53,876 nt of DNA from Candidatus Aenigmatarchaeota archaeon. GTDB taxonomy: Archaea > Aenigmatarchaeota > Aenigmatarchaeia > CG10238-14 > SpSt-28. Position numbers and translations under genes: made by a program. Below, piece after piece: positions 6,470 through 49,695 of the stretch. Under the pieces are notes generated by a model, which ran no database searches, was not told where the DNA came from, and worked only from the letters and a program-made list of their open reading frames with translations. The stretch lies in contig JAVYKI010000001.1 in assembly GCA_038742305.1 (NCBI GenBank), forward strand, positions 1-53,876. The letters are read 5' to 3'. How positions within the stretch are numbered: the stretch's first letter is position 1; every line of letters begins with the position of its first letter.

Positions 6470-6672
6470 TGAGAAAGAAAAAGCTATACAATTATCCAAA
6501 GTGTGCAGTATGCAAAAAAGTACTTCATGGAATTCCTAGAGCAAATAAGCTTAGAAGGCTTAATAAAAGCCAAAAAAGGGTTTCAAGAATTTTTGGTGGA
6601 TATCTTTGCTCAAAATGTTCTAGAGAAGTTATAAAAGAAAGAGCTAGGAAATTAGCGTCCAAACTCCTTTAA
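6469..6672 (+). CDS. rpl34e: ribosomal protein eL34
   Basis: PKCAVCKKVLHGIP...KRVSRIFGGYLCSKCSREVI matches the L34e zinc-ribbon-like signature. Confidence 0.85.
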   Translation: MRKKKLYNYPKCAVCKKVLHGIPRANKLRRLNKSQKRVSRIFGGYLCSKCSREVIKERARKLASKLL

Positions 6673-6779
6673 AAAGAATAAGTAATCCTATTATTATAAA
6701 TAAAAATTCTTTTGGAGCAAAAATTAAAATTATTATTCCTGCCAAAATATCTAAAATTCCTAAAAAAAGTAAAAATAAG

Positions 6780-8051
6780 TTACTCATTTTTCTTTTTACT
6801 TAAATATTTCTTCAAAGCATAGCTCAAAGGATTTCTTATTAGCCTACAAAATTCATCTGGCATGCAAACTCCATAATCTTTATAAAAAACTGGATGGTCA
6901 CAATTAGGAGGTAAAAGTTCTCTATTTTGTCTTAAATGCCATCTAAATTGAGTTCTTATTATTCCTTCTCTTAAAGGTGGTTTATTTCTTTTATTCCATT
7001 CTTCCAAAATTTTTTCAATTTCTTCCATAGTATAGCCAACGTTCCTTAAAAAAGTTATTAAAACAAAAATGCTCCTGTTTCTACCATCTTGCAATCCAGT
7101 CAAAATATTTTTTATGCAAGGAGGAAAATATTCTTCGGGAATTTTAGCAATTTTTCTTTTTCTAATTTCTTCTTTCATTTCCTTTATTTCAACTTCTATT
7201 CCTTTTCTCTCTATCCAATCAATTGCTTGATAAACTAAAATTTCTGCATCATTTTTAAACTTTTTAATCTTAATAACTTCTTTTACTTCATTAGGATTAG
7301 CAAAAGATTTTTTAAAGTTTAAAATTTCTTTATCATCTATTGGCAAACTTACTAAATAAGTTTTTTCGTTTAAAGAATATGGCATTCTAAATAAGTGTCT
7401 TAATCCAAAAACATCTATGTTAACAACTTTAAACGGGTCCAATTTATTTTCTGAATAAATTTCTGAAATTTGCTTTTTTACTCTTTCTGCAATTTCTTTA
7501 GGATTTCCAATAATTTCTATTAAATTTTTTCTTAGCTCTTCTTCTGTTTCATGTTTTATATATTCTATTAAACTTCTAGAAATTTCTAAATATTGTTTTG
7601 CAACATTTCTATTTCCAATTTTTTCTGGAAAACTCTCGAAAAAAATTATTATGTGAAAGCTATCTCCACCAGTAAATTTAACTAAATAACTTTTTACTCC
7701 ATAGTTTTTTATTGTTTGAATTAAGCATTTTGTTGCAATTTTAGCAATTTCAAAGTCTTTAACATCAACATCTATAACTAAATCCCACCCGATTCTCAGA
7801 TTATCAAATTCTTCTTTAAGCATTCCAGCACTTAATAACATAGGATTTTCAAATCTTTCTGCTGTGCAATGAAAAGCTATCGCACCTTCTTCAACTTTAG
7901 AAATTACATCAGCGCTACTCAATAATACATCTGGCCTTTCTCCATATTTTCCGTCTTTGTATACACTTACAACTTCTCTGTTTTTACCGAATTCTACTAA
8001 AAATTCTTGAATTTCTTTTCTAGAATAATATTCTTTTACTATGTTTAACAT
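6780..8051 (-). CDS. DNA primase, PriS catalytic domain fused to a PriL-type Fe-S C-terminal domain
   Basis: The N-terminal part has DLVIDVDV (catalytic DxD) and FTGGDSFHIIIF. The C-terminal ~120 aa has PPCIKNIL...PPNCDHP...YGVCMPDEFC, the four-Cys pattern of the PriL C-terminal domain. Confidence 0.85.
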   Translation of the reverse strand: MLNIVKEYYSRKEIQEFLVEFGKNREVVSVYKDGKYGERPDVLLSSADVISKVEEGAIAFHCTAERFENPMLLSAGMLKEEFDNLRIGWDLVIDVDVKDFEIAKIATKCLIQTIKNYGVKSYLVKFTGGDSFHIIIFFESFPEKIGNRNVAKQYLEISRSLIEYIKHETEEELRKNLIEIIGNPKEIAERVKKQISEIYSENKLDPFKVVNIDVFGLRHLFRMPYSLNEKTYLVSLPIDDKEILNFKKSFANPNEVKEVIKIKKFKNDAEILVYQAIDWIERKGIEVEIKEMKEEIRKRKIAKIPEEYFPPCIKNILTGLQDGRNRSIFVLITFLRNVGYTMEEIEKILEEWNKRNKPPLREGIIRTQFRWHLRQNRELLPPNCDHPVFYKDYGVCMPDEFCRLIRNPLSYALKKYLSKKKNE

Positions 8052-9660: not shown

Positions 9661-10044
9661 ATGAGAGCTTTAACAACTTTAGAAATAGTAATAATACTAG
9701 TTATACTAATAGTAACTGCTCTTTTCATTTTGAGTTGGCTAGGAATAGGAACTAATCCTTTAGACTGGTTTAAGAAGGAGTCTATAAGGAATACTTTTTG
9801 TGGAGAAGTACTTTCTAGGGCTAATTGTCAAGTCCAAACTTATAAGTTTGATGAGTATCCTTTAAAAAGTGATGATACTTCAACAAGAATAAAATGTAAA
9901 GATATAGCAGGAAAATGTGTAGGTAAAAGTTCTGAAGATCAAGCAACTTTTGAAGAAATTTGCAACTATTTAGGATATACAGGTACAGGTTATAACTTTT
10001 TTAAAACGTGTCTAGAAAAGGCTTGTGGATGTAAATTTACTTAA
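9661..10044 (+). CDS. prepilin-like secreted Cys-rich protein
   Basis: The N-terminus MRA|LTTLEIVIILVILIV has a basic residue at -2, Ala at -1 and Glu at +5, followed by a hydrophobic helix (class III/type IV prepilin-like). Eight Cys lie in the remaining ~90 aa. Confidence 0.55.
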   Translation: MRALTTLEIVIILVILIVTALFILSWLGIGTNPLDWFKKESIRNTFCGEVLSRANCQVQTYKFDEYPLKSDDTSTRIKCKDIAGKCVGKSSEDQATFEEICNYLGYTGTGYNFFKTCLEKACGCKFT

Positions 10045-11204
10045 CATATATTAACATCTATACTCCTTTTATATTCTTCACTTTTTTCAAACTCTATTTC
10101 TATCAAAATTTTTAAAGTATTAAGCTTTTCAGAATAGTTTTTACAAATTTCTAATTCATTATAAATGCTACATAAGCTATAAGCTCTACTAGTTAATTCT
10201 TTAGAACATTCTGATTCATTCATATCTTTACAAATTCTGCTTATTAAGTTTCGAATTTCTTCACTTTTATTCAATTCTTGAATTTTATCCCTTTCTATTA
10301 CTTTTATATTTACTGGATTAAAAGAACAATATTTATCAAACCTTTTAGAATAAACTTTGCCGTTTACTAAAATATTTAAATCTAAATTACATTCTTGAGA
10401 CTCTATTTCTTCTCTTCTTTCTCCGAAAAAGCTTGAAACTATTAGCGTATAATTTAGAATTTTTGCTCTAAGACTTTTTATTTTTACATTTTCTCCTCTA
10501 AATTCAAAAGAAAGTTCTAAAGGTAATAAATTGTTATAGGGTGTCGGATTTATATATACATAAGTTTCGAAAGGAGCCGAAACACTTAACTTTTTTACAC
10601 TCTCTTTTTCTCCAATTTCTACTTCCAATATATCTTTAACTTTAGAAGAATAGGTAATTTTATTTTCTATTACTGGAGAATATACACAATAAAGATTTCT
10701 TTCTCTTCCATCAACTTTTATACTTTTTTTATCCAAATAATAACATCTGCAATCTTCTAAGCATACTCCATTAGAGCATGCTTTGTTTTTGGAGCATTCT
10801 AAAGGTTGAAAAATATTTTCTTCTTTTTCGCAAAAATTTAAACCAGAAATTTTAGAATTATCAAAAATATTATTGAAAGTTATATCATAGGATTTTGCTT
10901 TTTGGGGTTCTATACTATCTAAAGCTTTATAATTGGCTATTTCTATTTTTCCAATTTTCAAAACAGAAAATAAATCTATATTTACATTTTCCCCAAAATT
11001 ATTAGTAATTTCTGCTCTAAAAACATAGTTATCATTTTGTGCATCTAAAGTATAGTATCTAAAATATACATCTAAGGTTTGATATCTAAAAATTTTTGGA
11101 ATATTAATTATTTCGCTTACTTCAACTTTAGTAATTTCTTTAATTACTAGAAAAGCTATTACAGCTATTACAATCAAAATTATTAGTATAAGTAAAGCAT
11201 TCAT
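10041..11204 (-). CDS. N-terminally anchored Cys-rich extracellular protein, unknown family
   Basis: N-terminal helix MNALLILIILIVIAVIAFLVI. Cys clusters NFCEKEE..LECSKNKACSNGVCLEDCRCYY and a C-terminal Cys-rich region. Last gene of the coupled operon. Confidence 0.6.
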   Translation of the reverse strand: MNALLILIILIVIAVIAFLVIKEITKVEVSEIINIPKIFRYQTLDVYFRYYTLDAQNDNYVFRAEITNNFGENVNIDLFSVLKIGKIEIANYKALDSIEPQKAKSYDITFNNIFDNSKISGLNFCEKEENIFQPLECSKNKACSNGVCLEDCRCYYLDKKSIKVDGRERNLYCVYSPVIENKITYSSKVKDILEVEIGEKESVKKLSVSAPFETYVYINPTPYNNLLPLELSFEFRGENVKIKSLRAKILNYTLIVSSFFGERREEIESQECNLDLNILVNGKVYSKRFDKYCSFNPVNIKVIERDKIQELNKSEEIRNLISRICKDMNESECSKELTSRAYSLCSIYNELEICKNYSEKLNTLKILIEIEFEKSEEYKRSIDVNIC

Positions 11205-12293: not shown

Positions 12294-12691
12294 GTTATAC
12301 TAATTTCATCGTTAACTTTACTAATAAAAATGTTGCAGATTAAATTTTCTATACATTCTAAACTAGTTTCTTTTAGTTTAATATAAGAAGGTTTAAAAAG
12401 TTTTGAAGCATAAAAATTTTTTTCTAGGCTAACTGTAACGTTTTCAGAATAAATGTTTATTTTCAAATTTTTTGGTGGCAACTTAATAATAAGCGAAACG
12501 TTATAGCTAGAAGAAAATATATTATTTAAAATTGAAGCTATTGTTTCTGCTGCAAGCTTAGATTCAAACCAACTCCTTTTTAAAAAGAAAAACAAAATTA
12601 TTTGGAAACCATAAATTAAAATTATTGATATAAACAACATTGAGAAAAAAAGAATTAAGTAAGTAATAAATGCTGAAGCTTTTAGGACCAT
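12290..12691 (-). CDS. prepilin-like small protein
   Basis: MVLKA|SAFITYLILFFSMLFISIILIY is a class III-like leader with Lys at -2 and Ala at -1. 133 aa. Confidence 0.5.
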   Translation of the reverse strand: MVLKASAFITYLILFFSMLFISIILIYGFQIILFFFLKRSWFESKLAAETIASILNNIFSSSYNVSLIIKLPPKNLKINIYSENVTVSLEKNFYASKLFKPSYIKLKETSLECIENLICNIFISKVNDEISIT

Positions 12692-15381
12692 TTCGCTAAT
12701 TCTGGCAAGTTTTTATAAACATATGGCCAAGACATTACCCCCTCTCTAAAAGTTAACATTCCTATTCCGAATAAATCAGCTATTAGTTCGCAATGGTCAA
12801 TCGCTGGACCTGCAGAACCTAATAAGCAAGCTTTTATTGCGCCTGCCGTTCCAGTACCTAGAGTTAAAACTGCGCAAACAGAAGCGATAATACATCTTCC
12901 AATAGTTTCTGAAGATTCTGAAGCAATATATGCATTAACATAATTTTCATAAGCATAGCAATAATTTGGATTTTTATTTTTATCTAGCAAAACTTCTACA
13001 AAAATTTTATTATCTTCTATGTATATTTGAGCTTTTCCGTAGCATGGACTAACTAAATAAAATCTAGGATCTTTAGCTACCCAACTATCTCTTTTTAATC
13101 TAACTTCTTCTATTCCAATTTCTTGACAACTTTTTGGCAATTCAAATTGTCTAACGCATGCACCTAACTGAGAGCAAATTTTTCCTTCTTCACATTCGGT
13201 TTGACAACCATATGGCATTTTTTGACCTTCATAGCCATAGTAAGAAAGTAGTTTATCCCAATAACTTGCACCTATAGGAGTATTTAAATCCAAATATCTA
13301 AAAATTGAATAACCAATTGCTCCTCTTCTAAAGAAAACTTGTAAATCTTCTTTTATTCTCAATTGTTTTCCATTAAGCAGGTTTACAAACATTTCAATTT
13401 CTTTTTTATCTTCTTGCTTAAAAATTTCAAAGAAATATTCTCTCAAAGCATCTTTAACTTCTTTTGGATTTGCTTTTGGGCCGAGCTTATCCAAAATATT
13501 TGCAAGCTTAGTATCTTTTTCTACAACTATTCCAAAGCTATGGGACATTTTATCTTTTAAGTTATTAAGTTTATTAATTATTTGATCTAAACTCATTCCG
13601 CTATACTTTTCGATTTTAGCAATAAGCTCTAGGTCTGTATTTTTTTTCTTGATTAATTCGTTAATAACTTCATCTGCGAAATCTTTAACAACTGTATTTG
13701 GAATTATCTTATTGTGCAAAAATGCTTTTTCTTCTAAAAGTGCTAAGTATTTCTTTATAGGTTCGGAAAAAGTTTGTTTTAATATTTTTGAAAAAGATTC
13801 TTCTGGATCGTAAATTACTTTTACAAGATTTCCATCAGCATCATATTCAAGCCTAAAATTTCCTAACCTTTCCAAAAGTTTATTAGTTTTTTGCTTGTAA
13901 TATTCTGCATAATTTTTGAAATCTTCAAAATATTCGTTTCCCTCATCTATATAAAGATTTCCGTTTTCAACAACTTTAAATCCTTTATTTATTAGAGCTG
14001 CTTCGCTTGGCTTATCTGCAATTTCTTCTGGCAACTTATCCAATACTCCTTTAACTTCTTCTAATTCAACTATTCCTTCAGAAAGTAATTCTAAAAATTC
14101 GTTCTCATTTAGCTTTTTTGTTATATAATTTATTTCAGAAGAAATCAAATCTAGCTCCGTATTAACAAAAAATGCCCTTATTCTATACTCTTCTTCATCC
14201 GGTAAATTTTTCAATAAATCTTTTATTTCGCCTACTTTTTTATTAATTTCTTCTAATTTTTCTTTTGCTTTTTGCCATTCTTTATTCTCTATAGCACTTC
14301 TATATTCATCCAAAAGATTATTAGCACTGTCTAATTTTTCAGTAACTTCTTGCTCTATATCACTTATATCTTTACTAAAAAGTTTTTCTTTAAAATACTT
14401 TAGTCTTAAGCTTATAGTATCTTTGGCATTTAAGAAAAATTCTTTAATTTCTCCTTTTACTTGATAATAGAGTTTATCTAATTTTCTTTTAAAATATGGC
14501 CACACCATTTCTTTAGAAATTATTTTAGTAACGTCAAGAAGTACTGCAGAAGATATAGATAAAGTTAAACATTGTTCTAAAGTCATATTTTGAGTAAATA
14601 AGCACACTAAGGTTAAAAATCCGGCTGCTTTACTAATCCAAATTACTTCTTCTTTTCCAGACTCAATATATTTTATTGTTATTTTTATTTTTTCTCCAAC
14701 TTTTGCTGCATAAATTTCTATTTTTTCCAGCTTTTTAACCAAAGTTTCAACTCCTTGCATTATTTCGTTTAATTCTTTTAAGTGTGGCTTTAGTTTATCT
14801 AATATCTCCTCTTTAATTCTTGTTGATAATTCCTGCCTAAACTTGAAAAATCCTTTTTCTAATAAGTTTCTCATATTTTTAGCACCTATTAAATCAAAAT
14901 TTAAGAAAAATGTATAAGTAGCTAAGGAAAATAGTAAATTAGAGCTCCAAGGCAGATCTTCTTGCCAAGGAATAAATACTGCAGCTAAAGTTCCTGCTAA
15001 GCCGGAAATTCCTTGCTCTGTAACATCTAAAATATCATACGGCGGCTCTGGAGGAAAAAATTCCCAATAAAACTTATAATAAGGGTCTCCAAAAATTTGA
15101 AGTGGAAGTTTTTCCTCTTCTAATTTTATCATTCTTTTAAATTCATCAAAAACGTTTGCAAAAGTTTTTTGGGGCAATTCTATATAAACTTCTTCAGGAT
15201 AATCTTTACTAGCTTTTCTATTACATGCAACATCTAAAGCACTATAAAATTTATTAAAGCTTCTTTCAACTATTCTATCGCTTTCATTATGTATTACAAA
15301 CCACCAAAAAAGAAAGCCAATTAATGCTGCAATTCCTACTCCAATAAAAAATCTTATACCAACTTCACTCAAATTTTTCAT
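12682..15381 (-). CDS. large membrane / coiled-coil / Cys-rich protein, unknown family
   Basis: 899 aa. N-terminal TM, further hydrophobic segments near residues 120-170 and 250-290, a long K/E-rich helical middle, a Cys-rich block (PYGCQTECEEGKICSQLGACV...) and a C-terminal hydrophobic Gly/Ala/Cys segment. First gene of the operon. Confidence 0.6.
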   Translation of the reverse strand: MKNLSEVGIRFFIGVGIAALIGFLFWWFVIHNESDRIVERSFNKFYSALDVACNRKASKDYPEEVYIELPQKTFANVFDEFKRMIKLEEEKLPLQIFGDPYYKFYWEFFPPEPPYDILDVTEQGISGLAGTLAAVFIPWQEDLPWSSNLLFSLATYTFFLNFDLIGAKNMRNLLEKGFFKFRQELSTRIKEEILDKLKPHLKELNEIMQGVETLVKKLEKIEIYAAKVGEKIKITIKYIESGKEEVIWISKAAGFLTLVCLFTQNMTLEQCLTLSISSAVLLDVTKIISKEMVWPYFKRKLDKLYYQVKGEIKEFFLNAKDTISLRLKYFKEKLFSKDISDIEQEVTEKLDSANNLLDEYRSAIENKEWQKAKEKLEEINKKVGEIKDLLKNLPDEEEYRIRAFFVNTELDLISSEINYITKKLNENEFLELLSEGIVELEEVKGVLDKLPEEIADKPSEAALINKGFKVVENGNLYIDEGNEYFEDFKNYAEYYKQKTNKLLERLGNFRLEYDADGNLVKVIYDPEESFSKILKQTFSEPIKKYLALLEEKAFLHNKIIPNTVVKDFADEVINELIKKKNTDLELIAKIEKYSGMSLDQIINKLNNLKDKMSHSFGIVVEKDTKLANILDKLGPKANPKEVKDALREYFFEIFKQEDKKEIEMFVNLLNGKQLRIKEDLQVFFRRGAIGYSIFRYLDLNTPIGASYWDKLLSYYGYEGQKMPYGCQTECEEGKICSQLGACVRQFELPKSCQEIGIEEVRLKRDSWVAKDPRFYLVSPCYGKAQIYIEDNKIFVEVLLDKNKNPNYCYAYENYVNAYIASESSETIGRCIIASVCAVLTLGTGTAGAIKACLLGSAGPAIDHCELIADLFGIGMLTFREGVMSWPYVYKNLPELAKWS

Positions 15382-15508: not shown

Positions 15509-17500
15509 ATGGATGTTAATAAAATTATTGAAGAATATGAAAAATCAAAAAAATTAAACTTTTATGAAAAGTTTTGCAACTTTTCTTATAACATTTTAAA
15601 GTTTAAACTTTCTCAAGAAGAATTGGAAAAATTTGAAGAAGTAAATAAATTTTGTAGGTTAAAAATTTATCCAGCTTCAAATTTTTCTGCTTCTATTCTT
15701 TTCTTTTTAATTTCCTTTTTCTTTTTAGTTTTCTTATCTTTCTTTATCCCATTTTCAATCCTTTTCTTTTTATTTACTCTTTTTACTTTTATTAGTTTTT
15801 TAATTTACTACTATCCTTTCTTACTAGCTAGAATAATAAGAAGCGTTTCTAGCTCAGAAATAATGCATGCAATAATTTACATGTCAATTTCTTTAAAACA
15901 AGTTCCAAACTTAGAAAGAGCAATAATTTTTACAGCTTCAAACTTGCATGGTTATGTTGGATTAGATTTTAAAGAATTAGCTTCAAAAATAGTATTTGGT
16001 CAAGAAAGTGCTAAAAGCGGATTAATGAAAATAATTGATAAATGGCAAAAAGAAGCTAAAGAGTTTGGAGAAGCTTTAAAAATTTTAATTTCTTATTCTG
16101 AAAATCCTTATTCAGATAAAATGTTAGAAGAAGCTGTAAGAATTGTTCATGAAGACACTTTTTCAAAATTAGAAAAATATTCTAGAAGCTTAAAGCTGCC
16201 TTCAACAATAATTTTAGGATTGGGAATTATTTTGCCTCTGCTTTCTTTAACAATTTTACCTTTATTCTCTATTTTCTTTCCTAGTATTCTTTCTTTTAAC
16301 GTTTTAATTATAATTTTTAATATTTTAATTCCAATACTTTTATTTTCTTTTATTTTAACTATTACTTCTTCTAGGCCATTAACTAGTTCTTATTTATTAA
16401 TAGAAGACCCATTTAAAATTAAAATTGGAAATTATAATTTAAATTTAATTTTAGTTTTATCTTTTATTTCTTTATTGCTTTTTCTTCCTCTCTTTTTAGA
16501 TTTTCTTAACTCTTCGAAAAATTATGAACTTTGTGCAGTATGGTTTTCTACAAAATTTTCAGAATTAAGAAAGCCTCAAGAATTAAATTTAAATAGAGAA
16601 GAATGTTTAGAAATATTGCAAAATACAAATTTCTTATCTTCTGCTTTTCCTTTAATACTTTTAATTTTGCCTTTTTCACTTTTAATTTTTAAAATAAGGA
16701 AAATTTTGTTTATAAGAGAAAGGACAGAAAAAATAGAAAAAGAGTTTAGTTCTGTTATATTCCAAATAGGTTACTATTTGAAATCTGGGAATACTTTAGA
16801 AACCGCAATATTTAAAGGAATTGAGAAATTCGAAAAGTTTGAAATTAGAAAGTTTTTTGAAAAAATTTTATCAAACTTGAGAGTTTACGGAAATTTAAAA
16901 GAAGCTATTTTTGGAGAAAAAGGAGCTATAAAAGATTATCCTTCAACTTTAATTAAAAGCTTTTTTGAAGTAATTGTAGAAACTTATAAAAGAGGTTATT
17001 ATTTTGCTGGAGAAGCCATGTTAAAACTTTCAAGCTTTTTGAATAGTTTGTATAAGCTACAAGATAAAATTGAAGAATTAATAAGTGATGTAGTAAGCAA
17101 TTTAAAATTTATTTCAGTTTTTTTAGTTCCAATAATTACTGGAGCTGGAATTTCATTAGCAATAATTCTTGTTTCAATACTAAATTCCATAGCATTAAAA
17201 TATTTAGAAATTCCTATTTCAAATGAAACAACAATTCCAATTTCTTTACCATTTATTTCTTTTTCTAATGTTGTTCCAATTTATTCTGGCTCTTTAGTTT
17301 TTTCTTTAGGACTTTTTGTGATAGAAATTGTATTAATTTCTAGTTTCTTAATAGTTAGTTTGGAAAAAGGTTTTGAAAAGTATTACTTTATTTCTTCTTC
17401 TATAAAAAACGTTTTAATTGCAATAATATTTTACTTATTAACAATACTTTTCTCTTCTTTCCTAATTCAACCTTTAGTTTCTACTATAACTCAATTTTAG
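15509..17500 (+). CDS. FlaJ/TadC/PilC-like type IV filament platform membrane protein
   Basis: 663 aa. Two helical cytoplasmic blocks with the T2SS-F domain pattern (SEIMHAIIYMSISLKQVPNLERAIIFTASNL... and EFSSVIFQIGYYLKSGNTLETAIFKGIEK...LRVYGNLKEAIF), each followed by TM clusters. Confidence 0.65.
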   Translation: MDVNKIIEEYEKSKKLNFYEKFCNFSYNILKFKLSQEELEKFEEVNKFCRLKIYPASNFSASILFFLISFFFLVFLSFFIPFSILFFLFTLFTFISFLIYYYPFLLARIIRSVSSSEIMHAIIYMSISLKQVPNLERAIIFTASNLHGYVGLDFKELASKIVFGQESAKSGLMKIIDKWQKEAKEFGEALKILISYSENPYSDKMLEEAVRIVHEDTFSKLEKYSRSLKLPSTIILGLGIILPLLSLTILPLFSIFFPSILSFNVLIIIFNILIPILLFSFILTITSSRPLTSSYLLIEDPFKIKIGNYNLNLILVLSFISLLLFLPLFLDFLNSSKNYELCAVWFSTKFSELRKPQELNLNREECLEILQNTNFLSSAFPLILLILPFSLLIFKIRKILFIRERTEKIEKEFSSVIFQIGYYLKSGNTLETAIFKGIEKFEKFEIRKFFEKILSNLRVYGNLKEAIFGEKGAIKDYPSTLIKSFFEVIVETYKRGYYFAGEAMLKLSSFLNSLYKLQDKIEELISDVVSNLKFISVFLVPIITGAGISLAIILVSILNSIALKYLEIPISNETTIPISLPFISFSNVVPIYSGSLVFSLGLFVIEIVLISSFLIVSLEKGFEKYYFISSSIKNVLIAIIFYLLTILFSSFLIQPLVSTITQF

Positions 17501-18551: not shown

Positions 18552-18647
18552 GGGGCCGTAGTCTAGCTAGGCAGGACGGCGGGCTCCAGAGCGAGCTCTG
18601 AAAAATGAAGAAACCCGCTAACCTGGGTTCAAATCCCAGCGGCCCCA
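18552..18647 (+). tRNA. trnW: tRNA-Trp (anticodon CCA) with a 23-nt intron at the canonical 37/38 position
   Basis: Acceptor GGGGCCG/CGGCCCC plus discriminator A. D arm GTCT-AGCTAGGCA-GGAC. Anticodon stem GCGGG/CCCGC with loop CT-CCA-G[intron]A. T arm CTGGG-TTCAAAT-CCCAG. No encoded CCA. Confidence 0.9.
18590..18612 (+). other. tRNA-Trp intron
   Basis: agcgagctctgaaaaatgaagaa lies between position 37 (G18589) and A38 (18613); the boundary is ambiguous by one A. Intron CUCUG (18596-18600) can pair with CAGAG, which spans the anticodon and the 5' splice site. Confidence 0.75.
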
Positions 18648-31769: not shown

Positions 31770-34700
31770 ATGGAGCTAAAGTTAAGAGTCGGAGAATTAA
31801 CTGCTAAAGAAGAAGCTTTTAGAGGATTAGTAAGAATAGATTTAAATAATTTAGTAAAAATTGGAGTAAGAGAGGGGGAAATTGTTGAAATTGAAGGAAA
31901 AAGGAAAACTGCTGCAATTGCATTAAAAGCTTATCCTGCAGATATCGGCTTAGATATAATAAGAATGGATGGAATTACTAGAAGAAATGCAGGAGTTGCT
32001 GTTGGAGAATTTGTTACAGTAAGAAAAGCTGAAGTAAAAGAAGCAAAAAAAGTTGTATTAGCTCCTGCTGAAGCAAAAATAATTACTGCTCATCCTCATT
32101 ATTTAAAGCAAAGTTTATTAAGAAGGCCTTTAGTTAAAGGAGATATAATTGTTCCTAATCCTGTTTCTAGAAGAGATGAATTTTTAGAAGCACTTTTTGG
32201 TTTTGATATTGAAGATTTCTTCTTTTCACCTTTTCCTCAAGTAAGGCTTTATGTTGTTAATACAGAGCCAAGCGGAATAGTTGTTGTTACAGAAAATACT
32301 GTTATAGAATTATTAAGAGAAAGACCAAAAGCATTGGAAATTGAAGAAAGAGGAATTCCAAGAGTTACTTGGGAAGATATTGGCGATTTACAAGAAGTTA
32401 AACAAAAACTTAGGGAAATGATAGAATTACCAATAAGACATCCAGAAGTTTTTGAAAGATTGGGAATTGATCCTCCAAAAGGAGTTTTGCTTTACGGTCC
32501 TCCAGGAACAGGAAAAACATTATTAGCAAAAGCTGTTGCAAATGAAAGTGGAGCATATTTTATATCTATTAGCGGTCCTGAAGTTACAAGTAAATGGTTT
32601 GGGGAAAGCGAAAAGAAATTAAGAGATATATTTGAAGAAGCTTCTAAAAATGCTCCTTCAATAATTTTTATTGATGAAATTGATGCAATTGCTCCGAAAA
32701 GAGAAGAAGTTGTTGGAGAAGTAGAAAAAAGAATTGTTGCTCAGCTTCTGGCTTTAATGGATGGGTTAAAAGAAAGAGGAAGAGTAATAGTTATTGGAGC
32801 AACTAATAGACCGAATGCTTTAGACCCAGCATTAAGAAGGCCTGGAAGGTTTGATAGAGAAATTGAAGTTCCTCCACCAGATGTTAATGGAAGGTATGAA
32901 ATATTAGTAATTCATACTAGAAACATGCCAATTAATCCTTTTGTAAAGCACTATGTAATTGAAGAATTAAAAGAAATGAATAGAGAAGATTTAATTAAAA
33001 AAGTTGAAGAATTAAAAGATGAAAATGAAATAAGAATGTTTATTTATAAAGAGCTTGAAAAAGAAGCTCCTCAAATTGAAAAGAAATTAAGAGAGAAAAT
33101 GTTAAGATGGTTAGCTGAAATTACTCATGGCTATGTTGGTGCTGATTTAGCTGCTTTAGCTAGAGAAGCTGCAATGCATGCATTAAGAAGAGCATTACCA
33201 GAAATTCAAAAGTTTAAAGAAGAAGAGGAAATTCCAAAAGAAGTTCTTGAAAAGCTTTTTGTTACTAAAGAAGATTTTGAATATGCATTAAAAATTGTTC
33301 AACCAAGCGCAATGAGAGAGGTTTTTGTTGAAGTTCCAAAAGTTAGATGGCAAGATATTGGTGGATTAGAAGAAGTTAAGCAAGCATTAAGAGAAGCTGT
33401 TGAATGGCCATTAAAATATAGAAAGTATTATGAAGCTCTCGGAATTAAGCCGCCAAGAGGAATTTTGCTTTATGGTCCTCCTGGAACAGGAAAAACATTA
33501 TTAGCAAAAGCTGTTGCGACAGAAAGTGGTGCTAACTTTATTGCAATTAAAGGCCCAGAAATATTTTGTTTAGATGGTAATGTACCAATAATTTCAAGTT
33601 TATGCGGATTAGAAAAAATAAGTAAATTCTATGAAAAAGTAAAAGAATTTTCAGAAGTTATAAAAGATAAAAACCTAGAAATTTTAGTTCCTAAAAAAGA
33701 AATTTTAGTTCCTTCCTTGAATAATAAAACTAGAGTAAAAAAAGTTTATAAACTTTTTGTTGAAAATGTTATAAAACTCAAAATAGAAAAGAATTCTCAA
33801 GAAATAATAGTATCTGCAAATCAGCCATTTTTAGCATATAAAAATAATGAAATAAAATGGATAAGAGCTGGTGAATTGGAAGAAGGAGATTATATTGCCT
33901 ATCCAGTTAAGATACCGAGCTTTAATCTAGAAATTAATCTAGAAGTTCCGAAGTACAAACACTTAAGAATAGTTAAAGAAGATGAAGACTATTATTATGT
34001 TAAAATATTTTCTTCAAAATCTATTACTAGATTACCAAAAAAGTTGAATGAAGATGTTGCAGAATTCTTAGGATGGTTTGCAGCAGAAGGTAGTATTAGC
34101 AAAGAAAAGAAAACTGTTTATATTTGTAATGGAAATGAAGAAAATATTAAAAGAATTGTTGAACTTTTCTCCATTTTTGTAGATAAAGAAAGAATAAAAG
34201 TTGATAGAAAAGGAAAAAGAGTAATTGTACATTCCATGCCGCTAATAGTTTTTCTAGAAAAAATTTTTGAGCAAAACTTAGAAAGAAAAGCTAGAAAAGT
34301 TAAAGTTCCTTCTATAATTTTTAAGGCTAATGAAAAAATAATTTCTGCTTTCTTAAAAGGATTATACAGAGGAGATGGCCATATCAGAAAAACAAAAATA
34401 GAACTTGGAACTATGAGTAAAAACCTTGCTAGAGGAGTATCTTATTTATTAACAATATTAGGAATTAGGCATAGAGTTTGGAAAAGCAATGCATATTTTG
34501 TAAGTATTTATGGAGAAGAGGATATAAAAGAATTTTTAGAAAAAGTTTTTGGAGAAAAAAGAAGTTTTAGAAAAAGAAAATATTATAATGCGAGATTAAT
34601 AGTTCCAGATGTCTCTTCAATATTAAGGGAATTAAAAAACAAGTATAATTTAAGGTATGAAAAAGAATTACCAGAAGGTTTGTTTGAAGCAGTAATTTCT

Positions 34701-35552
34701 AAAAGGACAAAAGCAAGACTAAAAAGATTAAGAAATATGATAAAAGTTCTAGAGAAGTTTGTTAAAGAGAATGATTTAAAAGTCTTAAAGTTTATAGTAG
34801 AAAGTCCTATACTTTGGACAAGAATAGTTAAAAAAGAAAAGGCTGAGCCAAGATTTATGTATGATTTGGAAACTGAAGACGGAATTTTCGTTGGGGGATA
34901 TTATCCATTGTTACTACATAACAGTAAATTTGTTGGCGAATCTGAGCGAATGATAAGAGAAATATTTAGAAAAGCTAGGGAAGTTGCTCCTTGCGTAATA
35001 TTTATTGATGAAATTGATGCAATTGCTCCAATGAGAGGATTAGAAGTTGGAACAAGAGTAACTGAAAACGTTGTTGCACAATTGTTAACTGAAATGAGCG
35101 GAATTCAAGAATTAAAAGATGTTGTTGTAATTGCTGCGACAAATAGGCCAGATATTTTGGACCCAGCAATATTAAGGCCTGGAAGGTTTGATAGATTAAT
35201 ATATGTTCCTCCTCCAGATGAAAAAGCTAGATTAGAAATTCTAAAAATTCATACTAGAAACGTTCCTTTAGCAAAAGATGTTGATTTAAAAGAAATAGCA
35301 AGAAAGACTGAAAATTATAGTGGAGCAGATTTGGAAGCATTAGTAAGAGAGGCTGCAATTCTTGCATTAAGAGAAGCTATAGAGAAAAACAAAGATCCAA
35401 AAGAAGTTAGAATGAAGCATTTTGAAATTGCATTAGAAAAAGTTAAACCATCTATTTCAAAAGAAATGATTGAATTTTATAAGAGATTTGAAGAAAGGAT
35501 GAAAAAAAGATTAATTGAAGAAAAAGAAAGAAAAGAAAAATATATTGGATAA
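31770..35552 (+). CDS. cdc48: CDC48/VCP-type AAA+ ATPase (two AAA domains) interrupted by an intein
   Basis: N-domain plus D1 ([26 protein letters not shown]) and D2 ([17 protein letters not shown]...VIFIDEIDA). The D2 sequence is split between GPEIF and SKFVGESE by 452 aa. Confidence 0.95.
33567..34922 (+). mobile_element. intein with LAGLIDADG homing-endonuclease domain in CDC48 D2
   Basis: Starts with Cys (CLDGNVPI) and ends LLLHN, followed by Ser+1. LAGLIDADG blocks [10 protein letters not shown] and [12 protein letters not shown]. Block F/G-like [19 protein letters not shown]. 1356 nt, in frame. Confidence 0.9.
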
Positions 35553-46526: not shown

Positions 46527-46898
46527 TTATTTATTCTTTATTTCAGTTTCCAATTTTTTCAAATAATCGTATAATATTTGAATATTTTCATTAGTTTCTT
46601 GAATTTCCTTTTCTACATCTTGCTTTCTTTTATTAAGTATTTCTAAAGCTTCTTCTAAACTTTTTTCTAAAAATATTCCAGCTCCTATATTTACTAAAAA
46701 CTTTTTTTCTTGTAAATTAATTCTTGCAAAAATGTTGTTGCCCAAATCTACATAGAAATCATTAGTTTGCTTGCAAAGTTCTAAACTTTCTATTGTATTA
46801 ATTATTTCTTCGTAATATTTTTTCAAAGTTTCTAAATATTCTAATAAATTTCTAAGCTGCTGATGAAAATACTGATATTCTAATACTTTTTTGTCCAT
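46527..46898 (-). CDS. pfdA: prefoldin alpha subunit
   Basis: Coiled coil, beta-hairpin region (FLVNIGAGIFLEKSLEEA), coiled coil. Lies upstream of ftsY, as in many archaea. Confidence 0.6.
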   Translation of the reverse strand: MDKKVLEYQYFHQQLRNLLEYLETLKKYYEEIINTIESLELCKQTNDFYVDLGNNIFARINLQEKKFLVNIGAGIFLEKSLEEALEILNKRKQDVEKEIQETNENIQILYDYLKKLETEIKNK

Positions 46899-46923: not shown

Positions 46924-48126
46924 ATGGAGGAAGAAAAAATAAAGCTGAAAAAAATAATTAAGGAATTGGAAAATGTTAGGGGCAGAAGGACTGAGCTTAT
47001 TTCTTATTATTTACCTCCAAACTATGATATAAATGCTGCTATTAATCAAATTGCTGCAGAAATTTCTACTGCTAAAAATATTAAATCTGACCAAACAAGA
47101 AATAATGTTTTAGATGCATTAGATAAAATAGCTAATGCATTAAAAAATATTAGGAAAATTGGACCAAACGGTTTAGCAATATTTTGCGGAAATGTTAGCC
47201 AGCAAGAAGGAAGAACTGATATAAGAATTTGGATAATAGAGCCTCCAGAGCCTTTAAATGTAAAGCTTTATCATTGCGACCAAGAATTTGTTCTTGAACC
47301 TTTAAAAGAGCTTTTAAAAGAAAAAGATGTTTATGGATTAATTGTACTAGATGCAAAAGAAGCAACTATAGGAATTCTTAGAGGAAAAAATATTATTCCT
47401 GTTTTTAATAAAGAATCTGATGTTCCAAGCAAAACAAGCAAAGGTGGCTGGAGCCAGCAAAGGTATAAAAGAATAAGAGAGCAAGCTTTAGATGAATGGT
47501 TAAAGAAAATTGGAGAAAAAGCTTCTCAAATATTTTTGCAAGAAAATGTTAAAGGAATAATAATTGGTGGTCCAGGTCCAACAAAAGAAGAATTTGTAAA
47601 CGGAGATTATTTAGATTATAGGTTAAAAAATAAAGTAATTGCTGTAAAGGATGTTGGATATACAGATGAGTATGGCTTAGAAGAACTAGTTAAAAGAAGT
47701 CAAGATGTTTTGCAAGAAGCTTCTATTACAAAAGAAAAAAATATTTTAAACGATTTTTTTGCAAAAATTGCTAAAAATGAAAATGTTGTTTATGGTTATT
47801 CAAATACAATTAAATATTTAGAAAGTGGAGCATTAGAAAAGCTTTTAATTTCTGAAGATTTTGATTTTGGAAAAATAAAGCTTAAATGTAATAATTGTGG
47901 ATATGAAAAAGAAGTTGAAGGTTATTTAAGCAGAATAGATAAAACTTGCGATAATTGTAAAGCGCAAATGGAAGTTATAAGTTTTGAAAATTACGATGAA
48001 AAAATAGTTGAATCTGCAAATTCTTTCGGAACTGAAGTAATTTTTATTTCTACTTCTACTCCTGAAGGAAAACAATTTTATAATTTAGGAGCTATTGGAG
48101 GGTTTGCAAGGTTTAGATTAGATTAA
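46924..48126 (+). CDS. prf1: peptide chain release factor aRF1 family, GGQ motif reads GGW
   Basis: NIKS (TAKNIKS), YxCxxxF (YHCDQEF), and VPSKTSKGGWSQQRYKRIRE at the GGQ position. Trp codon TGG at 47449-47451. CxxC...CxxC insert in the C-domain. Confidence 0.85.
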   Translation: MEEEKIKLKKIIKELENVRGRRTELISYYLPPNYDINAAINQIAAEISTAKNIKSDQTRNNVLDALDKIANALKNIRKIGPNGLAIFCGNVSQQEGRTDIRIWIIEPPEPLNVKLYHCDQEFVLEPLKELLKEKDVYGLIVLDAKEATIGILRGKNIIPVFNKESDVPSKTSKGGWSQQRYKRIREQALDEWLKKIGEKASQIFLQENVKGIIIGGPGPTKEEFVNGDYLDYRLKNKVIAVKDVGYTDEYGLEELVKRSQDVLQEASITKEKNILNDFFAKIAKNENVVYGYSNTIKYLESGALEKLLISEDFDFGKIKLKCNNCGYEKEVEGYLSRIDKTCDNCKAQMEVISFENYDEKIVESANSFGTEVIFISTSTPEGKQFYNLGAIGGFARFRLD

Positions 48127-48877
48127 AAAACTTTAAAGTATTTTCATCTATAATACTTTCTACTTTTTCAAAACTTAAATTTTTTAGTTTTGAAATTTCT
48201 TCTATTACAATTTTAACGTTAATCGGCTCATTAAATTCAGAATTTATAGCGCACCAAGGCGAATCTGTTTCGCTTAATAAAAATTCAAGAGGAATTTCTT
48301 TTGCAACAGCCTTTATTGCATTATTTTTTGCAATATAACTATTTATTCCAATAAAATAGCCTTCTTTTATTATTTCCTTTGCAAGTTTAACTTTTCCATC
48401 GTAATAATGAAAAACAGCATTTTTTATATCATTATCAATAATTATTTTTAAAACTTCTTTTATTGCATTTCTAGCATGCAAAACTATTGGCAACTTTAGC
48501 TCTTTTGCAAAGTTTAGCATTTCTACAAAAACTTCTTTTGATTTTTCAATTTTATTATTTTCTTTTATCCAATAAAAATCCAAACCAATTTCTCCAATAG
48601 CAATTATTTTATCCCTATTTTCTTTAATTTTTTCCATGTAATTTTCTAATTCTTTTTCTTTTACTTCTAAACTATCTATTGGATGTAAGCCAGCAGAAAT
48701 GTAAACAAAATCTGGATATTTTTCTTTTAAGCTTATTGCTCTTTCAAAATCTTCAATGCTAGCAACAGAATCTATTATTAACTTTAAATGTTTTCTATAT
48801 TCCTCTATTCTATTCCTTAAAGGATTTTCTTTTCCTTTAAATTCCTTTACGCTTAAATGGCAATGATAATCTATCAT
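48113..48877 (-). CDS. TatD-family metal-dependent hydrolase
   Basis: MIDYHCHL start, IGEIGLD, VLHARNA, FHYYDG and ETDSPW motifs. Start moved from the track's GTG at 48907 to the ATG at 48877. Confidence 0.8.
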   Translation of the reverse strand: MIDYHCHLSVKEFKGKENPLRNRIEEYRKHLKLIIDSVASIEDFERAISLKEKYPDFVYISAGLHPIDSLEVKEKELENYMEKIKENRDKIIAIGEIGLDFYWIKENNKIEKSKEVFVEMLNFAKELKLPIVLHARNAIKEVLKIIIDNDIKNAVFHYYDGKVKLAKEIIKEGYFIGINSYIAKNNAIKAVAKEIPLEFLLSETDSPWCAINSEFNEPINVKIVIEEISKLKNLSFEKVESIIDENTLKFFNLI

Positions 48878-48901
48878 AAAATAAAAAATAAATTTATTAT
48901 T

Positions 48902-48968
48902 GCCCACCTCGTGCTTCTGGCTTCAAAGCTCGCTTGACTCATAGCTAGCCAGAGGCTGGCGAGTGGGC
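48902..48968. other. isolated GC-rich extended hairpin, candidate structured RNA or REP-like element
   Basis: GCCCAC(C)TCG...CGAGTGGGC closes the element. Inside, CTTCTGGCT pairs with AGCCAGAGG (one G-T pair on the plus strand). Composition contrasts sharply with the AT-rich flanks. No tRNA T-loop and no C/D or ACA boxes. Confidence 0.35.
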
Positions 48969-48972
48969 ATAA

Positions 48973-49368
48973 CTATAATTTTAATTTTTTTAGGACAAAT
49001 TCTTTTACTTTTTCTGCAATTTCTATTGCTTCTTTTGCTTCCTGCTCTGAAATAACTTCGCTAAACTTAGCATCATATCTAGCTAAAACTGCATAACTAG
49101 AAATTTTATCTATTTCTTTTAAACCTTCTAAACTTTCGAAATCTTTATCCAATTTTTTACATTCTTTAATTAAGAATCTTAAATTATGTGTTTTATGTTT
49201 TTTAGGATTAAAGACATTCTTTTCTGTTAAAAAGGCTTTAAGAAATAATTCTATAGCTTGCTGAGCCAAAAAACAAGAAATTCTATTTACACCTATTTCT
49301 AAAACCTTTTTTGCAGAAACTAAATTATCTTCAGCTAACTTTATAATCTCTTCTGTATCTTTCTTCAT
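48973..49368 (-). CDS. HEPN domain protein
   Basis: AQQAIELFLKAFL...HKTHNL...LARYDAKF. Lies directly downstream of the MNT gene. Confidence 0.7.
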   Translation of the reverse strand: MKKDTEEIIKLAEDNLVSAKKVLEIGVNRISCFLAQQAIELFLKAFLTEKNVFNPKKHKTHNLRFLIKECKKLDKDFESLEGLKEIDKISSYAVLARYDAKFSEVISEQEAKEAIEIAEKVKEFVLKKLKL

Positions 49369-49695
49369 TTAAATTATTATTCCCTCCTTATTTGCCCAAA
49401 AATATATAAAGCCTTTATATTTTTTTCTTTTTTCAAACTCATTTTTATCTATTACTAAAATTTCAATCGGAGCCTCTATTTTTTCAGTTAAATTTTTTGA
49501 TAAATTAGAATAAAAATCCCAATATTTTTCCTTTTCTAATTTTTCTTTTGTAATAATTAATAAATCGTAATCTGAATCTTCTCTGTAATCACCTCTTGCT
49601 CTTGAACCAAATAGTATTATTTTATATATTTCAATATTCATTTCTTTTGCTATGTTTAGAATTATTTCTTTTATTTTTCGCAAATTCTCATCCAT
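49369..49695 (-). CDS. minimal nucleotidyltransferase (MNT)
   Basis: IILFGSRARGDYREDSDYDLLIIT. 108 aa. Confidence 0.75.
   Translation of the reverse strand: MDENLRKIKEIILNIAKEMNIEIYKIILFGSRARGDYREDSDYDLLIITKEKLEKEKYWDFYSNLSKNLTEKIEAPIEILVIDKNEFEKRKKYKGFIYFWANKEGIII

What the first reader, a model, noticed from the sequence alone, without database searches (positions are those of the whole stretch)
46924..48126. aRF1 retains stop-codon recognition motifs, but its catalytic GGQ is GGW
Codons 47443-47451 (ggt ggc tgg) give G-G-W, where class I release factors of all domains carry GGQ. The context VPSKTSKGGWSQQRYKRIRE aligns without gaps to the usual archaeal VPxKHxxGGQSxxRFxRLxE. This is therefore a Gln-to-Trp replacement, which needs at least two base changes from CAA/CAG. 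It is not a frameshift.

NIKS (TAKNIKS) and YxCxxxF (YHCDQEF) are intact, so this is an aRF1 rather than a Pelota. The GGQ glutamine sits in the peptidyl-transferase centre during peptidyl-tRNA hydrolysis and is the target of dedicated methyltransferases. A bulky Trp there is unexpected. If this is the only aRF1 in the genome, termination chemistry in this organism is unusual. If it is a paralog, it may be a non-hydrolysing stop-codon binder. The C-domain also has a CxxC...CxxC insert (CNNCGYEKEV...CDNCKAQ).
Basis: partly seen in the sequence, partly recalled or inferred. Interest (0 to 1): 0.75.

Follow-up and report, generated by a model that had tools for sequence, protein, structure and literature searches.

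The report
Archaeal release factor with GGW loop
The protein that ends translation in this archaeon, and in a large group of its Aenigmatarchaeota relatives, carries GG-Trp/Met/Phe/Tyr-Ser-Gln where release factors are described as universally having Gly-Gly-Gln, which makes it a natural test of what that glutamine does.

Summary
Codons 47443-47451 read GGT GGC TGG in an intact 400-aa ORF. That ORF scores as a full three-domain aRF1 (TIGR03676, 469 bits against a cut-off of 235). The Trp aligns without gaps to the Gln of GGQ in solved aRF1 and eRF1 structures.

It is not an error. Two independent SRA assemblies carry identical DNA. 116 of the 120 closest database proteins also lack the Gln.

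About 147 of the 349 aRF1 sequences sampled form an Aenigmatarchaeota group with GG[M/W/F/Y]. Trp looks ancestral. The group sits next to Aenigmatarchaeota lineages with ordinary GGQ. Both kinds of lineage keep the same aRF1/TatD gene arrangement, so this is the in-place ortholog and not a paralog.

95% of these proteins have Gln two residues downstream (GGxSQ), against 18% of GGQ proteins. About nine other archaeal lineages reached GG[W/F/A]SQ independently. GGxSQ is the loop reported for Vms1-like release factors.

Best reading: a working release factor with a remodelled catalytic loop. Not shown here: biochemical activity, absence of a second aRF1 genome-wide, and the status of the Mtq2 methyltransferase. 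I found no published report of this variant.

The parts
46924..48126 (+). aRF1 gene, 400 aa, with three eRF1 domains
   Evidence: The ORF is. Pfam finds eRF1_1 (residues 9-131), eRF1_2 (137-265) and eRF1_3 (269-399). NCBIfam TIGR03676 scores 469 bits against a cut-off of 234.7. The AF2 model has pLDDT 85, and its best Foldseek matches are 4af1 (aRF1) and 5lzt (eRF1, TM 0.76).
47068..47088 (+). TAKNIKS, the NIKS stop-codon recognition motif (residues 49-55)
   Evidence: Read directly from the sequence. N, K and the neighbouring T/A are conserved across the variant group: N 142/142 and K 142/142.
47269..47289 (+). YHCDQEF, the YxCxxxF stop-codon recognition motif (residues 116-122)
   Evidence: Read directly from the sequence. 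Y, C and F are each 146/146 in the variant group.
47422..47481 (+). Catalytic loop and the start of the following helix, VPSKTSKGGWSQQRYKRIRE (residues 167-186)
   Evidence: It aligns without gaps to the GGQ loops of 4af1 and human eRF1. G174, G175, S177, R180 and R185 are invariant in 147/147 members of the group. In the AF2 model the loop 165-177 is unstructured and the helix begins at Q178.
47443..47451 (+). ggt ggc tgg = G174-G175-W176, at the position of the canonical GGQ
   Evidence: Identical DNA is found in two independent SRA assemblies. Across the group the position is M 69, W 59, F 13, Y 5 and Q 1.
47452..47457 (+). agc cag = S177-Q178. This Gln at +2 completes a GGxSQ loop.
   Evidence: Q at +2 occurs in 139/147 variant proteins against 34/190 GGQ proteins. 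It also occurs in 11 of 12 isolated non-Q sequences from other lineages. GGxSQ is the loop motif reported for aVLRF-1 and acVLRF-1 (PMC6514570).
47887..47958 (+). Zinc-ribbon insert of the C-domain, CNNC...CDNC (C322-C345). This is an ordinary feature of archaeal aRF1.
   Evidence: It aligns to the corresponding segment of 4af1. C322, C342 and C345 are invariant in both GGx and GGQ relatives. There is a weak Zn_ribbon_RPB9 hit.
48113..48907 (-). TatD-family hydrolase gene, convergent with aRF1 and overlapping it by 14 nt. It serves as a synteny marker.
   Evidence: Pfam TatD_DNase, E = 6e-62. The same convergent aRF1/TatD pairing is found in the GGM loci L002, L004, L010 and L055 and in the GGQ loci L020, L021, L028 and L043.
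46527..46898 (-). Prefoldin subunit gene, divergent from aRF1 (housekeeping context)
   Evidence: Pfam Prefoldin, E = 5e-19. The same neighbour is present in the two independent assemblies.

Best explanation
This is the organism's own orthologous aRF1. In a large Aenigmatarchaeota lineage its catalytic loop was remodelled from GGQ-S-A to GG-Φ-S-Q. Φ was most likely Trp at first and later Met, Phe or Tyr.

Stop-codon recognition is unchanged: NIKS and YxCxxxF are intact. I infer that the protein still triggers peptidyl-tRNA hydrolysis, as follows:
- The two glycines keep the loop conformation.
- The main-chain NH of residue 176 still helps position the water, as proposed for the Gln backbone amide in bacterial release factors.
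- The large hydrophobic side chain takes over the packing role against peptidyl-transferase-centre nucleotides that is normally played by the (N5-methyl)glutamine side chain.
- Q178, two residues on, supplies the polar amide, as in the GGxSQ loops of Vms1-like release factors.

The likely evolutionary route is GGQSA to GGQSQ to GGWSQ to GG(M/F/Y)SQ.

Shown here: the sequence, the group-wide distribution, the coupling with Q at +2, the convergent origins, and orthology by synteny.

Inferred only: catalytic competence, the roles of W176 and Q178, and independence from Mtq2 methylation.
For: (1) It is a true aRF1. TIGR03676 scores 469 bits, all three eRF1 domains are present, NIKS and YxCxxxF are intact, and the fold matches aRF1/eRF1.

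(2) The variant is group-wide and constrained. 116 of the top 120 homologues are non-Q. In 147 group members GG, S177, R180 and R185 are 100% conserved, and position 176 holds only M, W, F or Y, with one Q in a fragment. Changes among W (TGG), M (ATG), F (TTY) and Y (TAY) mostly need two base changes. No small, charged, Leu, Cys or Arg intermediates are seen. This argues for selection for a large hydrophobic residue and against decay.

(3) Epistasis with +2. Q178 occurs in 95% of the group against 18% of GGQ proteins. About 9 further lineages lost the Gln independently (W x5, F x4, A x2, S x1 sequences), and 11 of these 12 sequences have Q at +2. Each of them is closer to a GGQ protein than to the main group. 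In three cases the nearest GGQ relative is a GGQSQ protein. In 100 bootstraps they never joined the main group.

(4) Orthology. The convergent aRF1/TatD arrangement is shared by GGM and GGQ Aenigmatarchaeota loci. Each of 16 variant-bearing assemblies gave one aRF1 locus. The window holds no second aRF1 or Pelota.

(5) All three stop codons end genes in the window: TAA 28, TAG 16, TGA 8. A tRNA that appears to be a standard, intron-bearing tRNA-Trp(CCA) is present.

(6) Published mechanism.
- The Gln backbone amide is proposed to catalyse hydrolysis (PMC6742477).
- The Gln side chain has a 'packing role', and its methyl group adds van der Waals contacts to U2506, A2451 and A2452 (PMC5799190).
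- GGxSQ is the loop of aVLRF-1 and acVLRF-1 (PMC6514570).
Against: No activity data exist.

Eight group members have neither Gln (GGMSA, GGWSA, GGMSS). So Q178 cannot be strictly required, and its catalytic role is an inference.

In the AF2 model Q178 is the first residue of the helix after the loop. It could therefore be a helix cap and not a PTC residue.

Strict monophyly of the group has only 45/100 NJ bootstrap support. In about 28% of replicates the GGQ sister lineages nest inside it. One origin is therefore not certain.

Whole genomes could not be searched, so a second, canonical aRF1 elsewhere in the genome is not excluded. The genome scan was cut at 600 rows.

From my own knowledge, not read here: classical mutagenesis reported that Gln substitutions in eRF1 and RF1/RF2 are poorly tolerated in vivo.
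Confidence: 0.62

Rival explanations
1. It is a working release factor that uses the backbone only. The glutamine side chain is simply dispensable in this lineage. W/M/F/Y is tolerated or mildly beneficial packing. The Gln at +2 has no catalytic role and is, for example, a helix N-cap.
For: Eight group members lack Gln at both positions (GGMSA, GGWSA, GGMSS). The backbone-amide model of catalysis is published (PMC6742477). The AF2 model puts Q178 at the first turn of the helix.
Against: The +2 Gln is present in 95% of the group against 18% of GGQ proteins. It recurs in 11 of 12 sequences from independent non-Q lineages. That is hard to explain without a functional link. A binomial test on about 9 lineages at a background of 0.18 gives roughly 1e-5 (my calculation from the counts).
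Confidence: 0.22
2. It is a non-hydrolysing stop-codon or A-site binder: a paralog or a repurposed factor acting as a regulator, a hibernation factor or a rescue factor. Another protein performs peptide release.
For: The canonical Gln is missing. Catalytically dead relatives of the fold exist, namely Pelota and Balon. Whole genomes were not searched.
Against: The gene occupies the same locus as the canonical aRF1 of sister lineages. Each of 16 variant assemblies gave a single aRF1 locus, while the same scan found two loci in a Woesearchaeota assembly. GG, S177, R180, R185, NIKS and YxCxxxF are all invariant, unlike the decayed loops of Pelota and baeRF1 families (PMC6514570). The scores for Pelota, Balon-type and acVLRF1 models are all far below their cut-offs.
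Confidence: 0.1
3. It is a sequencing or assembly error, or a decaying pseudogene.
For: None beyond the prior expectation that GGQ is invariant.
Against: Two independent SRA assemblies carry identical DNA including TGG. The ORF is intact. Dozens of diverged relatives from ENA, JGI, NCBI and Logan carry the same motif class. Conservation elsewhere in the protein is strong.
Confidence: 0.01

Closest known systems
Classical archaeal aRF1 (e.g. Halobacterium salinarum aRF1, PDB 4af1; Aeropyrum pernix aRF1, PDB 3agk/3vmf) and eukaryotic eRF1
   Same: The three-domain architecture is the same, with NIKS, YxCxxxF, the GG pair, the Ser after the motif, the Arg-rich helix and the C-domain zinc ribbon. 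The match to 4af1 has E = 1e-84 over residues 4-396 with an ungapped loop alignment.
   Different: The third residue of GGQ is Trp (Met, Phe or Tyr in relatives). A187-equivalent is Gln, and F190-equivalent is mostly Tyr. The residue that Mtq2 methylates in Haloferax aRF1 (PMC6144793) does not exist here.
Vms1-like release factor families aVLRF-1 and acVLRF-1 (Burroughs & Aravind 2019, PMC6514570)
   Same: The catalytic-loop motif GGxSQ is the same, on the same RNase-H-like eRF1 middle-domain fold. The window protein gives a secondary hit to Pfam acVLRF1 (53 bits).
   Different: It is not a member of these families. NF041024 (acVLRF1) scores 40 bits against a cut-off of 125, while eRF1_2 scores 138 bits and TIGR03676 scores 469. 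The protein has the NIKS N-domain and the eRF1 C-domain, and it sits at the aRF1 locus. The resemblance in the loop is convergent.
Laboratory GGQ mutants of RF1/RF2/eRF1
   Same: The glutamine is replaced while the glycines are kept. The published view is that the glycines are indispensable, whereas the Gln side chain has a packing and water-positioning role and the backbone amide catalyses (PMC5799190; PMC6742477).
   Different: Those are engineered single substitutions. From my own knowledge, they are generally deleterious in vivo. Here the change is natural, fixed in a whole lineage, restricted to large hydrophobic residues, and coupled to a second-site Gln.
Pelota/Dom34 and Balon-type (baeRF1) A-site factors
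   Same: They share the fold family and lack the canonical GGQ glutamine.
   Different: Those families lack NIKS and have decayed, length-variable loops (PMC6514570; PMC13324472). The window protein keeps NIKS, YxCxxxF, GG and the loop length. It scores far below the cut-offs of those families.

Membership tests
aRF1/eRF1 (class I release factor of archaea and eukaryotes, TIGR03676) | Full-length match to the equivalog model, with eRF1 domains 1, 2 and 3 | tested here: met
   TIGR03676 scores 469.3 bits against a cut-off of 234.7 over residues 4-398. Pfam finds eRF1_1, eRF1_2 and eRF1_3, all above their cut-offs. Foldseek's top hits are aRF1 and eRF1.
aRF1/eRF1 (class I release factor of archaea and eukaryotes, TIGR03676) | Stop-codon recognition motifs NIKS and YxCxxxF in the N domain | tested here: met
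   TAKNIKS is at residues 49-55 and YHCDQEF at residues 116-122. Both are conserved across the variant group.
aRF1/eRF1 (class I release factor of archaea and eukaryotes, TIGR03676) | Gly-Gly-Gln tripeptide at the tip of the M-domain loop | tested here: not met
   The tripeptide is GGW (47443-47451), and it aligns without gaps to GGQ of 4af1 and human eRF1. The protein is therefore an aRF1 by descent (ortholog) that fails the family's canonical catalytic-motif criterion. I file it as a variant, not as a standard member.
aRF1/eRF1 (class I release factor of archaea and eukaryotes, TIGR03676) | Stop-codon-dependent peptidyl-tRNA hydrolysis on the ribosome | not testable with these tools
   This needs an in vitro release assay or genetics.
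aRF1/eRF1 (class I release factor of archaea and eukaryotes, TIGR03676) | It is the single-copy aRF1 of its genome and orthologous to canonical aRF1 | tested here: inconclusive
   Synteny with TatD is shared with GGQ lineages. Each of 16 variant assemblies gave one locus. The window has no second copy.
Pelota/Dom34 | Match to TIGR00111 above its cut-off, with no NIKS and no GGQ | tested here: not met
   TIGR00111 scores 83 bits against a cut-off of 177.65, and only over the M and C domains. NIKS is present.
aVLRF-1 / acVLRF-1 (Vms1-like release factors) | GGxSQ catalytic loop | tested here: met
   GGWSQ is at residues 174-178. The motif definition comes from PMC6514570.
aVLRF-1 / acVLRF-1 (Vms1-like release factors) | Family-level sequence membership (NF041024 / PF18859 as the best model) | tested here: not met
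   NF041024 scores 40.2 bits against a cut-off of 125. PF18859 scores 52.9 bits, against 137.6 bits for eRF1_2 on the same region.
Balon / baeRF1 ribosome hibernation factors | Match to the hibernation-factor models, with no NIKS and no GGQ, and a distinct lineage | tested here: not met
   NF052288 scores 21.8 bits against a cut-off of 480, and NF052289 scores 20.2 bits against 320. Foldseek identity to Balon is 12-14%. NIKS is present.

The most novel reading that the evidence does not exclude
GG-Φ-S-Q (Φ = W/M/F/Y) is a second, naturally evolved catalytic solution for peptide release on the ribosome. It arose convergently in about ten archaeal lineages. It works without the canonical glutamine and without its Mtq2-dependent methylation, with the hydrophobic residue standing in for methyl-glutamine. 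The lineages carrying it would then have lost Mtq2 or repurposed it. 'Universally conserved GGQ' would need to be restated as 'GG plus a backbone NH, with interchangeable packing and polar side chains'.
Probability: 0.45. Interest if true: 0.88.

Novelty: new variant of a known kind. Interest (0 to 1): 0.78.

Why it matters
[quoted passage not shown] Its glutamine is the target of dedicated methyltransferases in bacteria, eukaryotes and archaea (PMC6144793, PMC5799190, PMC6514570).

A whole archaeal lineage, plus several convergent ones, has replaced that glutamine in what appears to be its only aRF1. This offers three things.

1. A natural experiment on a long-standing question: is the Gln side chain catalytic, a water selector, or just packing?
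2. A ready set of testable variants: W/M/F/Y at the Gln position, with or without Q at +2.
3. An evolutionary bridge between the GGQ loop of classical release factors and the GGxSQ loop of Vms1-like factors.

It also predicts that Mtq2 is lost or retargeted in these genomes.

There is a practical consequence. Pipelines that tell aRF1 from Pelota or Balon by the presence of GGQ (as in PMC13324472) would misclassify these proteins.

Tried and rejected
- Frameshift or misalignment: rejected. The ORF is intact and the loop aligns without gaps to solved structures.
- Sequencing error: rejected. Independent assemblies carry identical DNA, and diverged relatives carry the same motif class.
- Pelota, Balon or VLRF1 identity: rejected by model scores.
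- Second aRF1 or Pelota in the window: none found with a group-specific HMM on six-frame ORFs.
- Mtq2 in the window or in the 82 fetched loci: no NPPY-type methyltransferase in the window. Three NPPF methyltransferases (my guess: METTL5-like, not checked against any model) turned up in non-Aenigmatarchaeota loci. This is uninformative, because whole genomes could not be scanned.
- rRNA of the organism, to look for co-variation in the peptidyl-transferase centre: none in the window.
- Taxonomic names for the isolated variant proteins: cluster look-up gave none. The contig of P0149 shows housekeeping context only.
- Shaw & Green 2007 and Seit-Nebi 2001 (Gln mutagenesis): not held in the library. 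What I say about them rests on my own knowledge.
- Supplementary alignments of PMC6514570, to see which residue is x in VLRF1 GGxSQ: not held.
- Literature searches for this variant: DPANN or Aenigm(at)archaeota with GGQ, GGxSQ, and inteins in aRF1. No report found.
- Strict single origin of the group: only moderately supported, at 45/100 NJ bootstraps.
Full report
**1. The observation**

The window is AT-rich (about 26% G+C). At 46924..48126 (+) it carries an uninterrupted 400-aa ORF. Bases 47443-47451 are ggt ggc tgg (G174-G175-W176), followed by agc cag (S177-Q178).

Pfam finds eRF1 domains 1, 2 and 3. The NCBIfam equivalog TIGR03676 (aRF1) scores 469 bits against a cut-off of 235. Pelota (83 against 178), acVLRF1 (40 against 125) and the two Balon-type hibernation-factor models (about 21 against 320-480) all fail.

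phmmer against PDB sequences aligns residues 4-396 to Halobacterium aRF1 (4af1, E = 1e-84) and to human eRF1. There is no gap in the loop. W176 lies on the Gln of GGQ, S177 on the Ser and R180 on the Arg. An AlphaFold2 model (pLDDT 85) matches aRF1 and eRF1 structures best. TAKNIKS and YHCDQEF are present.

**2. It is not an artefact**

Contigs assembled independently from two SRA runs (SRR34265293 and SRR21619488) are identical to the window over 3.1-3.2 kb, including the TGG codon. In the 5.8-billion-protein search, 116 of the 120 best hits lack the glutamine. They read GGW, GGM, GGF or GGY. Only four read GGQ. The fourteen closest distinct proteins (80-88% identity, from ENA, JGI and Logan) all read GGWSQ.

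The window uses TAA, TAG and TGA as stops (28, 16 and 8 genes). It also holds an apparent intron-bearing tRNA-Trp(CCA) (anticodon read by eye). Nothing therefore suggests an unusual reading of TGG or of the stop codons.

**3. Distribution**

I combined three sets: the close hits, the 150 best representatives of a search over 1.84 billion cluster representatives, and aRF1 genes from 80 GTDB species genomes. Inteins were excised and everything was aligned to one HMM, giving 349 sequences.

A neighbour-joining tree places 147 sequences in one group. All members that carry a taxon name are Aenigmatarchaeota MAGs. In this group the GGQ position is M (69), W (59), F (13), Y (5) or Q (1, a fragment). 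The earliest branches are all W, so Trp is the likely ancestral replacement, and M, F and Y are derived. The sister group (27 sequences, ten labelled Aenigmatarchaeota) is GGQ.

With the two motif columns removed, the group is recovered in the reference tree. Strict monophyly is found in 45 of 100 bootstraps. In most other replicates, either two GGQ sequences or the GGQ sister group nest inside it. One origin is likely but not certain. Outside this group, 190 of 202 archaeal aRF1 sequences are GGQ.

**4. A coupled second-site change**

Within the group, G174, G175, S177, R180 and R185 are invariant (147/147). The residue at +2 (178) is Gln in 139 of 147. Among GGQ proteins the same position is Ala 123, Gln 34 and Ser 29 of 190.

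Twelve further non-Q sequences lie scattered in about nine other places in the tree: GGW x5, GGF x4, GGA x2 and GGS x1. Eleven of the twelve have Gln at +2. Each is more similar to some GGQ protein than to any member of the main group. The margins are clear for P0138, P0232, L071, P0223 and P0238, and marginal for P0216 and P0225 (43.6 against 43.5%, and 50.2 against 49.0%). For P0138, P0157 and P0212 the nearest GGQ relative is itself GGQSQ. None of the four isolated lineages tested (P0138/P0272, P0149, P0223, L071) ever joined the main group in 100 bootstraps. The GGQ sister group also contains GGQSQ members (L021, L025).

The pattern is what epistasis predicts. The Gln at the canonical position is lost on a background that already has, or simultaneously gains, a Gln two residues downstream. 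The replacement is almost always a large hydrophobic or aromatic residue. Taking about nine independent lineages and a background frequency of 0.18, eight or more with Q at +2 has a probability of roughly 1e-5 (my calculation from the counts).

Within the main group, switches among W, M, F and Y mostly need two base changes each. Yet no Leu, Cys, Arg, small or charged residues are seen. This points to selection for side-chain size and hydrophobicity.

**5. Ortholog or paralog?**

The window gene is flanked by a prefoldin gene (divergent) and a TatD-family gene (convergent, overlapping by 14 nt). FtsY, a TrmB regulator, RFC subunits, aEF-2, SecY and other housekeeping genes are nearby.

The convergent aRF1/TatD pair is found at GGM loci (L002, L004, L010, L055). 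It is also found at GGQ Aenigmatarchaeota-type loci (L020, L021, L028, L043). The variant gene therefore sits where the canonical gene sits in sister lineages.

In the genome scan, each of the 16 assemblies with a variant aRF1 gave one locus. One Woesearchaeota assembly gave two, so the scan can detect duplicates. The window contains no second aRF1 or Pelota.

These points favour 'the organism's own aRF1'. They do not prove it is the only one. The scan was cut at 600 candidate rows, and whole genomes were not readable.

**6. How it most likely works**

Published structural work makes three points:
- The two glycines adopt conformations only glycine can reach.
- The Gln side chain has a 'packing role'. 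[quoted passage not shown]
- The Gln backbone amide is proposed to catalyse hydrolysis (PMC6742477).

Burroughs & Aravind note that the archaeal and actinobacterial Vms1-like release factors carry GGxSQ where classical factors carry GGQ (PMC6514570).

I therefore read GG-Φ-S-Q as a remodelled but active loop. GG and the residue-176 backbone are retained. A hydrophobic side chain fills the pocket normally filled by (methyl)glutamine. Q178 provides the amide.

This is inference. Three caveats apply:
- Eight group members have no Gln at either position (GGMSA, GGWSA, GGMSS). Q178 can therefore be dispensed with, which keeps a 'backbone-only' variant of the explanation alive.
- In the AF2 model Q178 is the first residue of the helix after a low-confidence loop.
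- Q178 has Ser at -1 and Lys (Asp in GGM forms) at +4, whereas human HEMK2 strongly prefers Gly at -1 and Arg at +4 (PMC10804810). I therefore predict that the variant is not an Mtq2 substrate. In Haloferax, aRF1 is methylated on the GGQ Gln by Mtq2, and Mtq2 was reported in all archaea (PMC6144793). Whether the variant genomes keep Mtq2 could not be tested here.

**7. Comparison with what is known**

By descent the protein is an aRF1. By the textbook motif criterion it fails, which is why I call it a new variant of a known kind.

It works like, but is not a member of, the VLRF-1 families (GGxSQ). It is not Pelota and not a Balon-type factor.

Full-text searches of the held literature found no description of a classical aRF1/eRF1 lacking the GGQ glutamine or carrying GGxSQ. 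Subscription-only papers were not searchable, so prior notice cannot be excluded.

**8. Side observations**

- Many archaeal aRF1 genes carry an intein exactly between the third motif residue and the Ser (GGQ|C...HN|S). This holds for 69 of the 272 database proteins collected (before the 80 genome loci were added), with inteins of 134-577 aa, in both GGQ and GGM/GGW/GGF proteins. Four carry one inside YxCxxxF. The window's gene has none.
- The window's CDC48 gene does carry an intein.
- The C-domain CxxC...CxxC element is the ordinary aRF1 zinc ribbon.

**9. Verdict**

Confidence that this is a functional release factor with a remodelled loop, taking both mechanistic variants together, is about 0.85. 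Confidence in the specific GGΦSQ division of labour is about 0.6.

Noticed in passing
Relatives of the window gene (e.g. P0037, P0070, P0121-P0134; site equivalent to window 47451/47452): 69 of the 272 database aRF1 proteins collected (before the 80 genome loci were added) carry an intein inserted exactly between the third residue of the GGQ/GGx motif and the following Ser (GGQ|C...HN|S). Mini-inteins are about 135-160 aa and large ones about 400-580 aa. They occur in GGQ, GGM, GGW and GGF proteins alike. I found no paper describing aRF1 inteins.
   Followed up: partly
Relatives P0215, P0236, P0253, P0261 (site equivalent to window ~47274/47275): There is a second intein insertion site inside the YxCxxxF stop-codon recognition motif (Y-x|C...HN|CDDHF). 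P0261 carries inteins at both sites, and P0227 probably does too (not caught by the pattern).
   Followed up: partly
window 31770-35552 (+): The CDC48/VCP-type AAA ATPase (1260 aa) is interrupted by an intein with a LAGLIDADG endonuclease domain (Pfam Intein_splicing 623-1037, LAGLIDADG_3 858-926).
   Followed up: no
window 18552-18647 (+): A 96-nt tRNA that ARAGORN reports with a four-base anticodon 'ccag'. Rfam tRNA scores 54 bits. Read by eye, it looks like an archaeal tRNA-Trp(CCA) with an intron of about 24 nt just after the anticodon.
   Followed up: partly
window 48973-49695 (-): A HEPN-domain protein (48973-49368) and a minimal nucleotidyltransferase (49369-49695) form an adjacent pair, the usual HEPN/MNT toxin-antitoxin-like module, directly downstream of TatD.
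   Followed up: no
window 6780-8051 (-): A single 423-aa ORF matches both the small (PriS) and large (PriL) DNA primase subunits, which indicates a fused primase.
   Followed up: no
window 10041-11204 (-), 12682-15381 (-), 15509-17500 (+): Three large ORFs (387, 899 and 663 aa) have no Pfam match at E <= 1e-5.
   Followed up: no
L071 (JBKHKA010000028.1, labelled Aenigmatarchaeota) 5896-7194, and L035/L060 (JAHWHN01, Woesearchaeota): L071 carries a GGFSQ aRF1 whose nearest relative is a Thermoplasmata-type GGQ protein (58% against 44% to the main group). This suggests a separate origin, mis-binning or transfer. One Woesearchaeota assembly has two GGQ aRF1 loci, which could be a paralog or bin contamination.
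   Followed up: no
Loop column 181 of the aRF1 alignment (window 47464-47466, Y181): The aromatic residue after the conserved Arg is Tyr in 126/147 variant proteins but Phe in 146/190 GGQ proteins. K173 and T171 are also enriched. These are further positions that co-vary with the loss of the Gln.
   Followed up: partly
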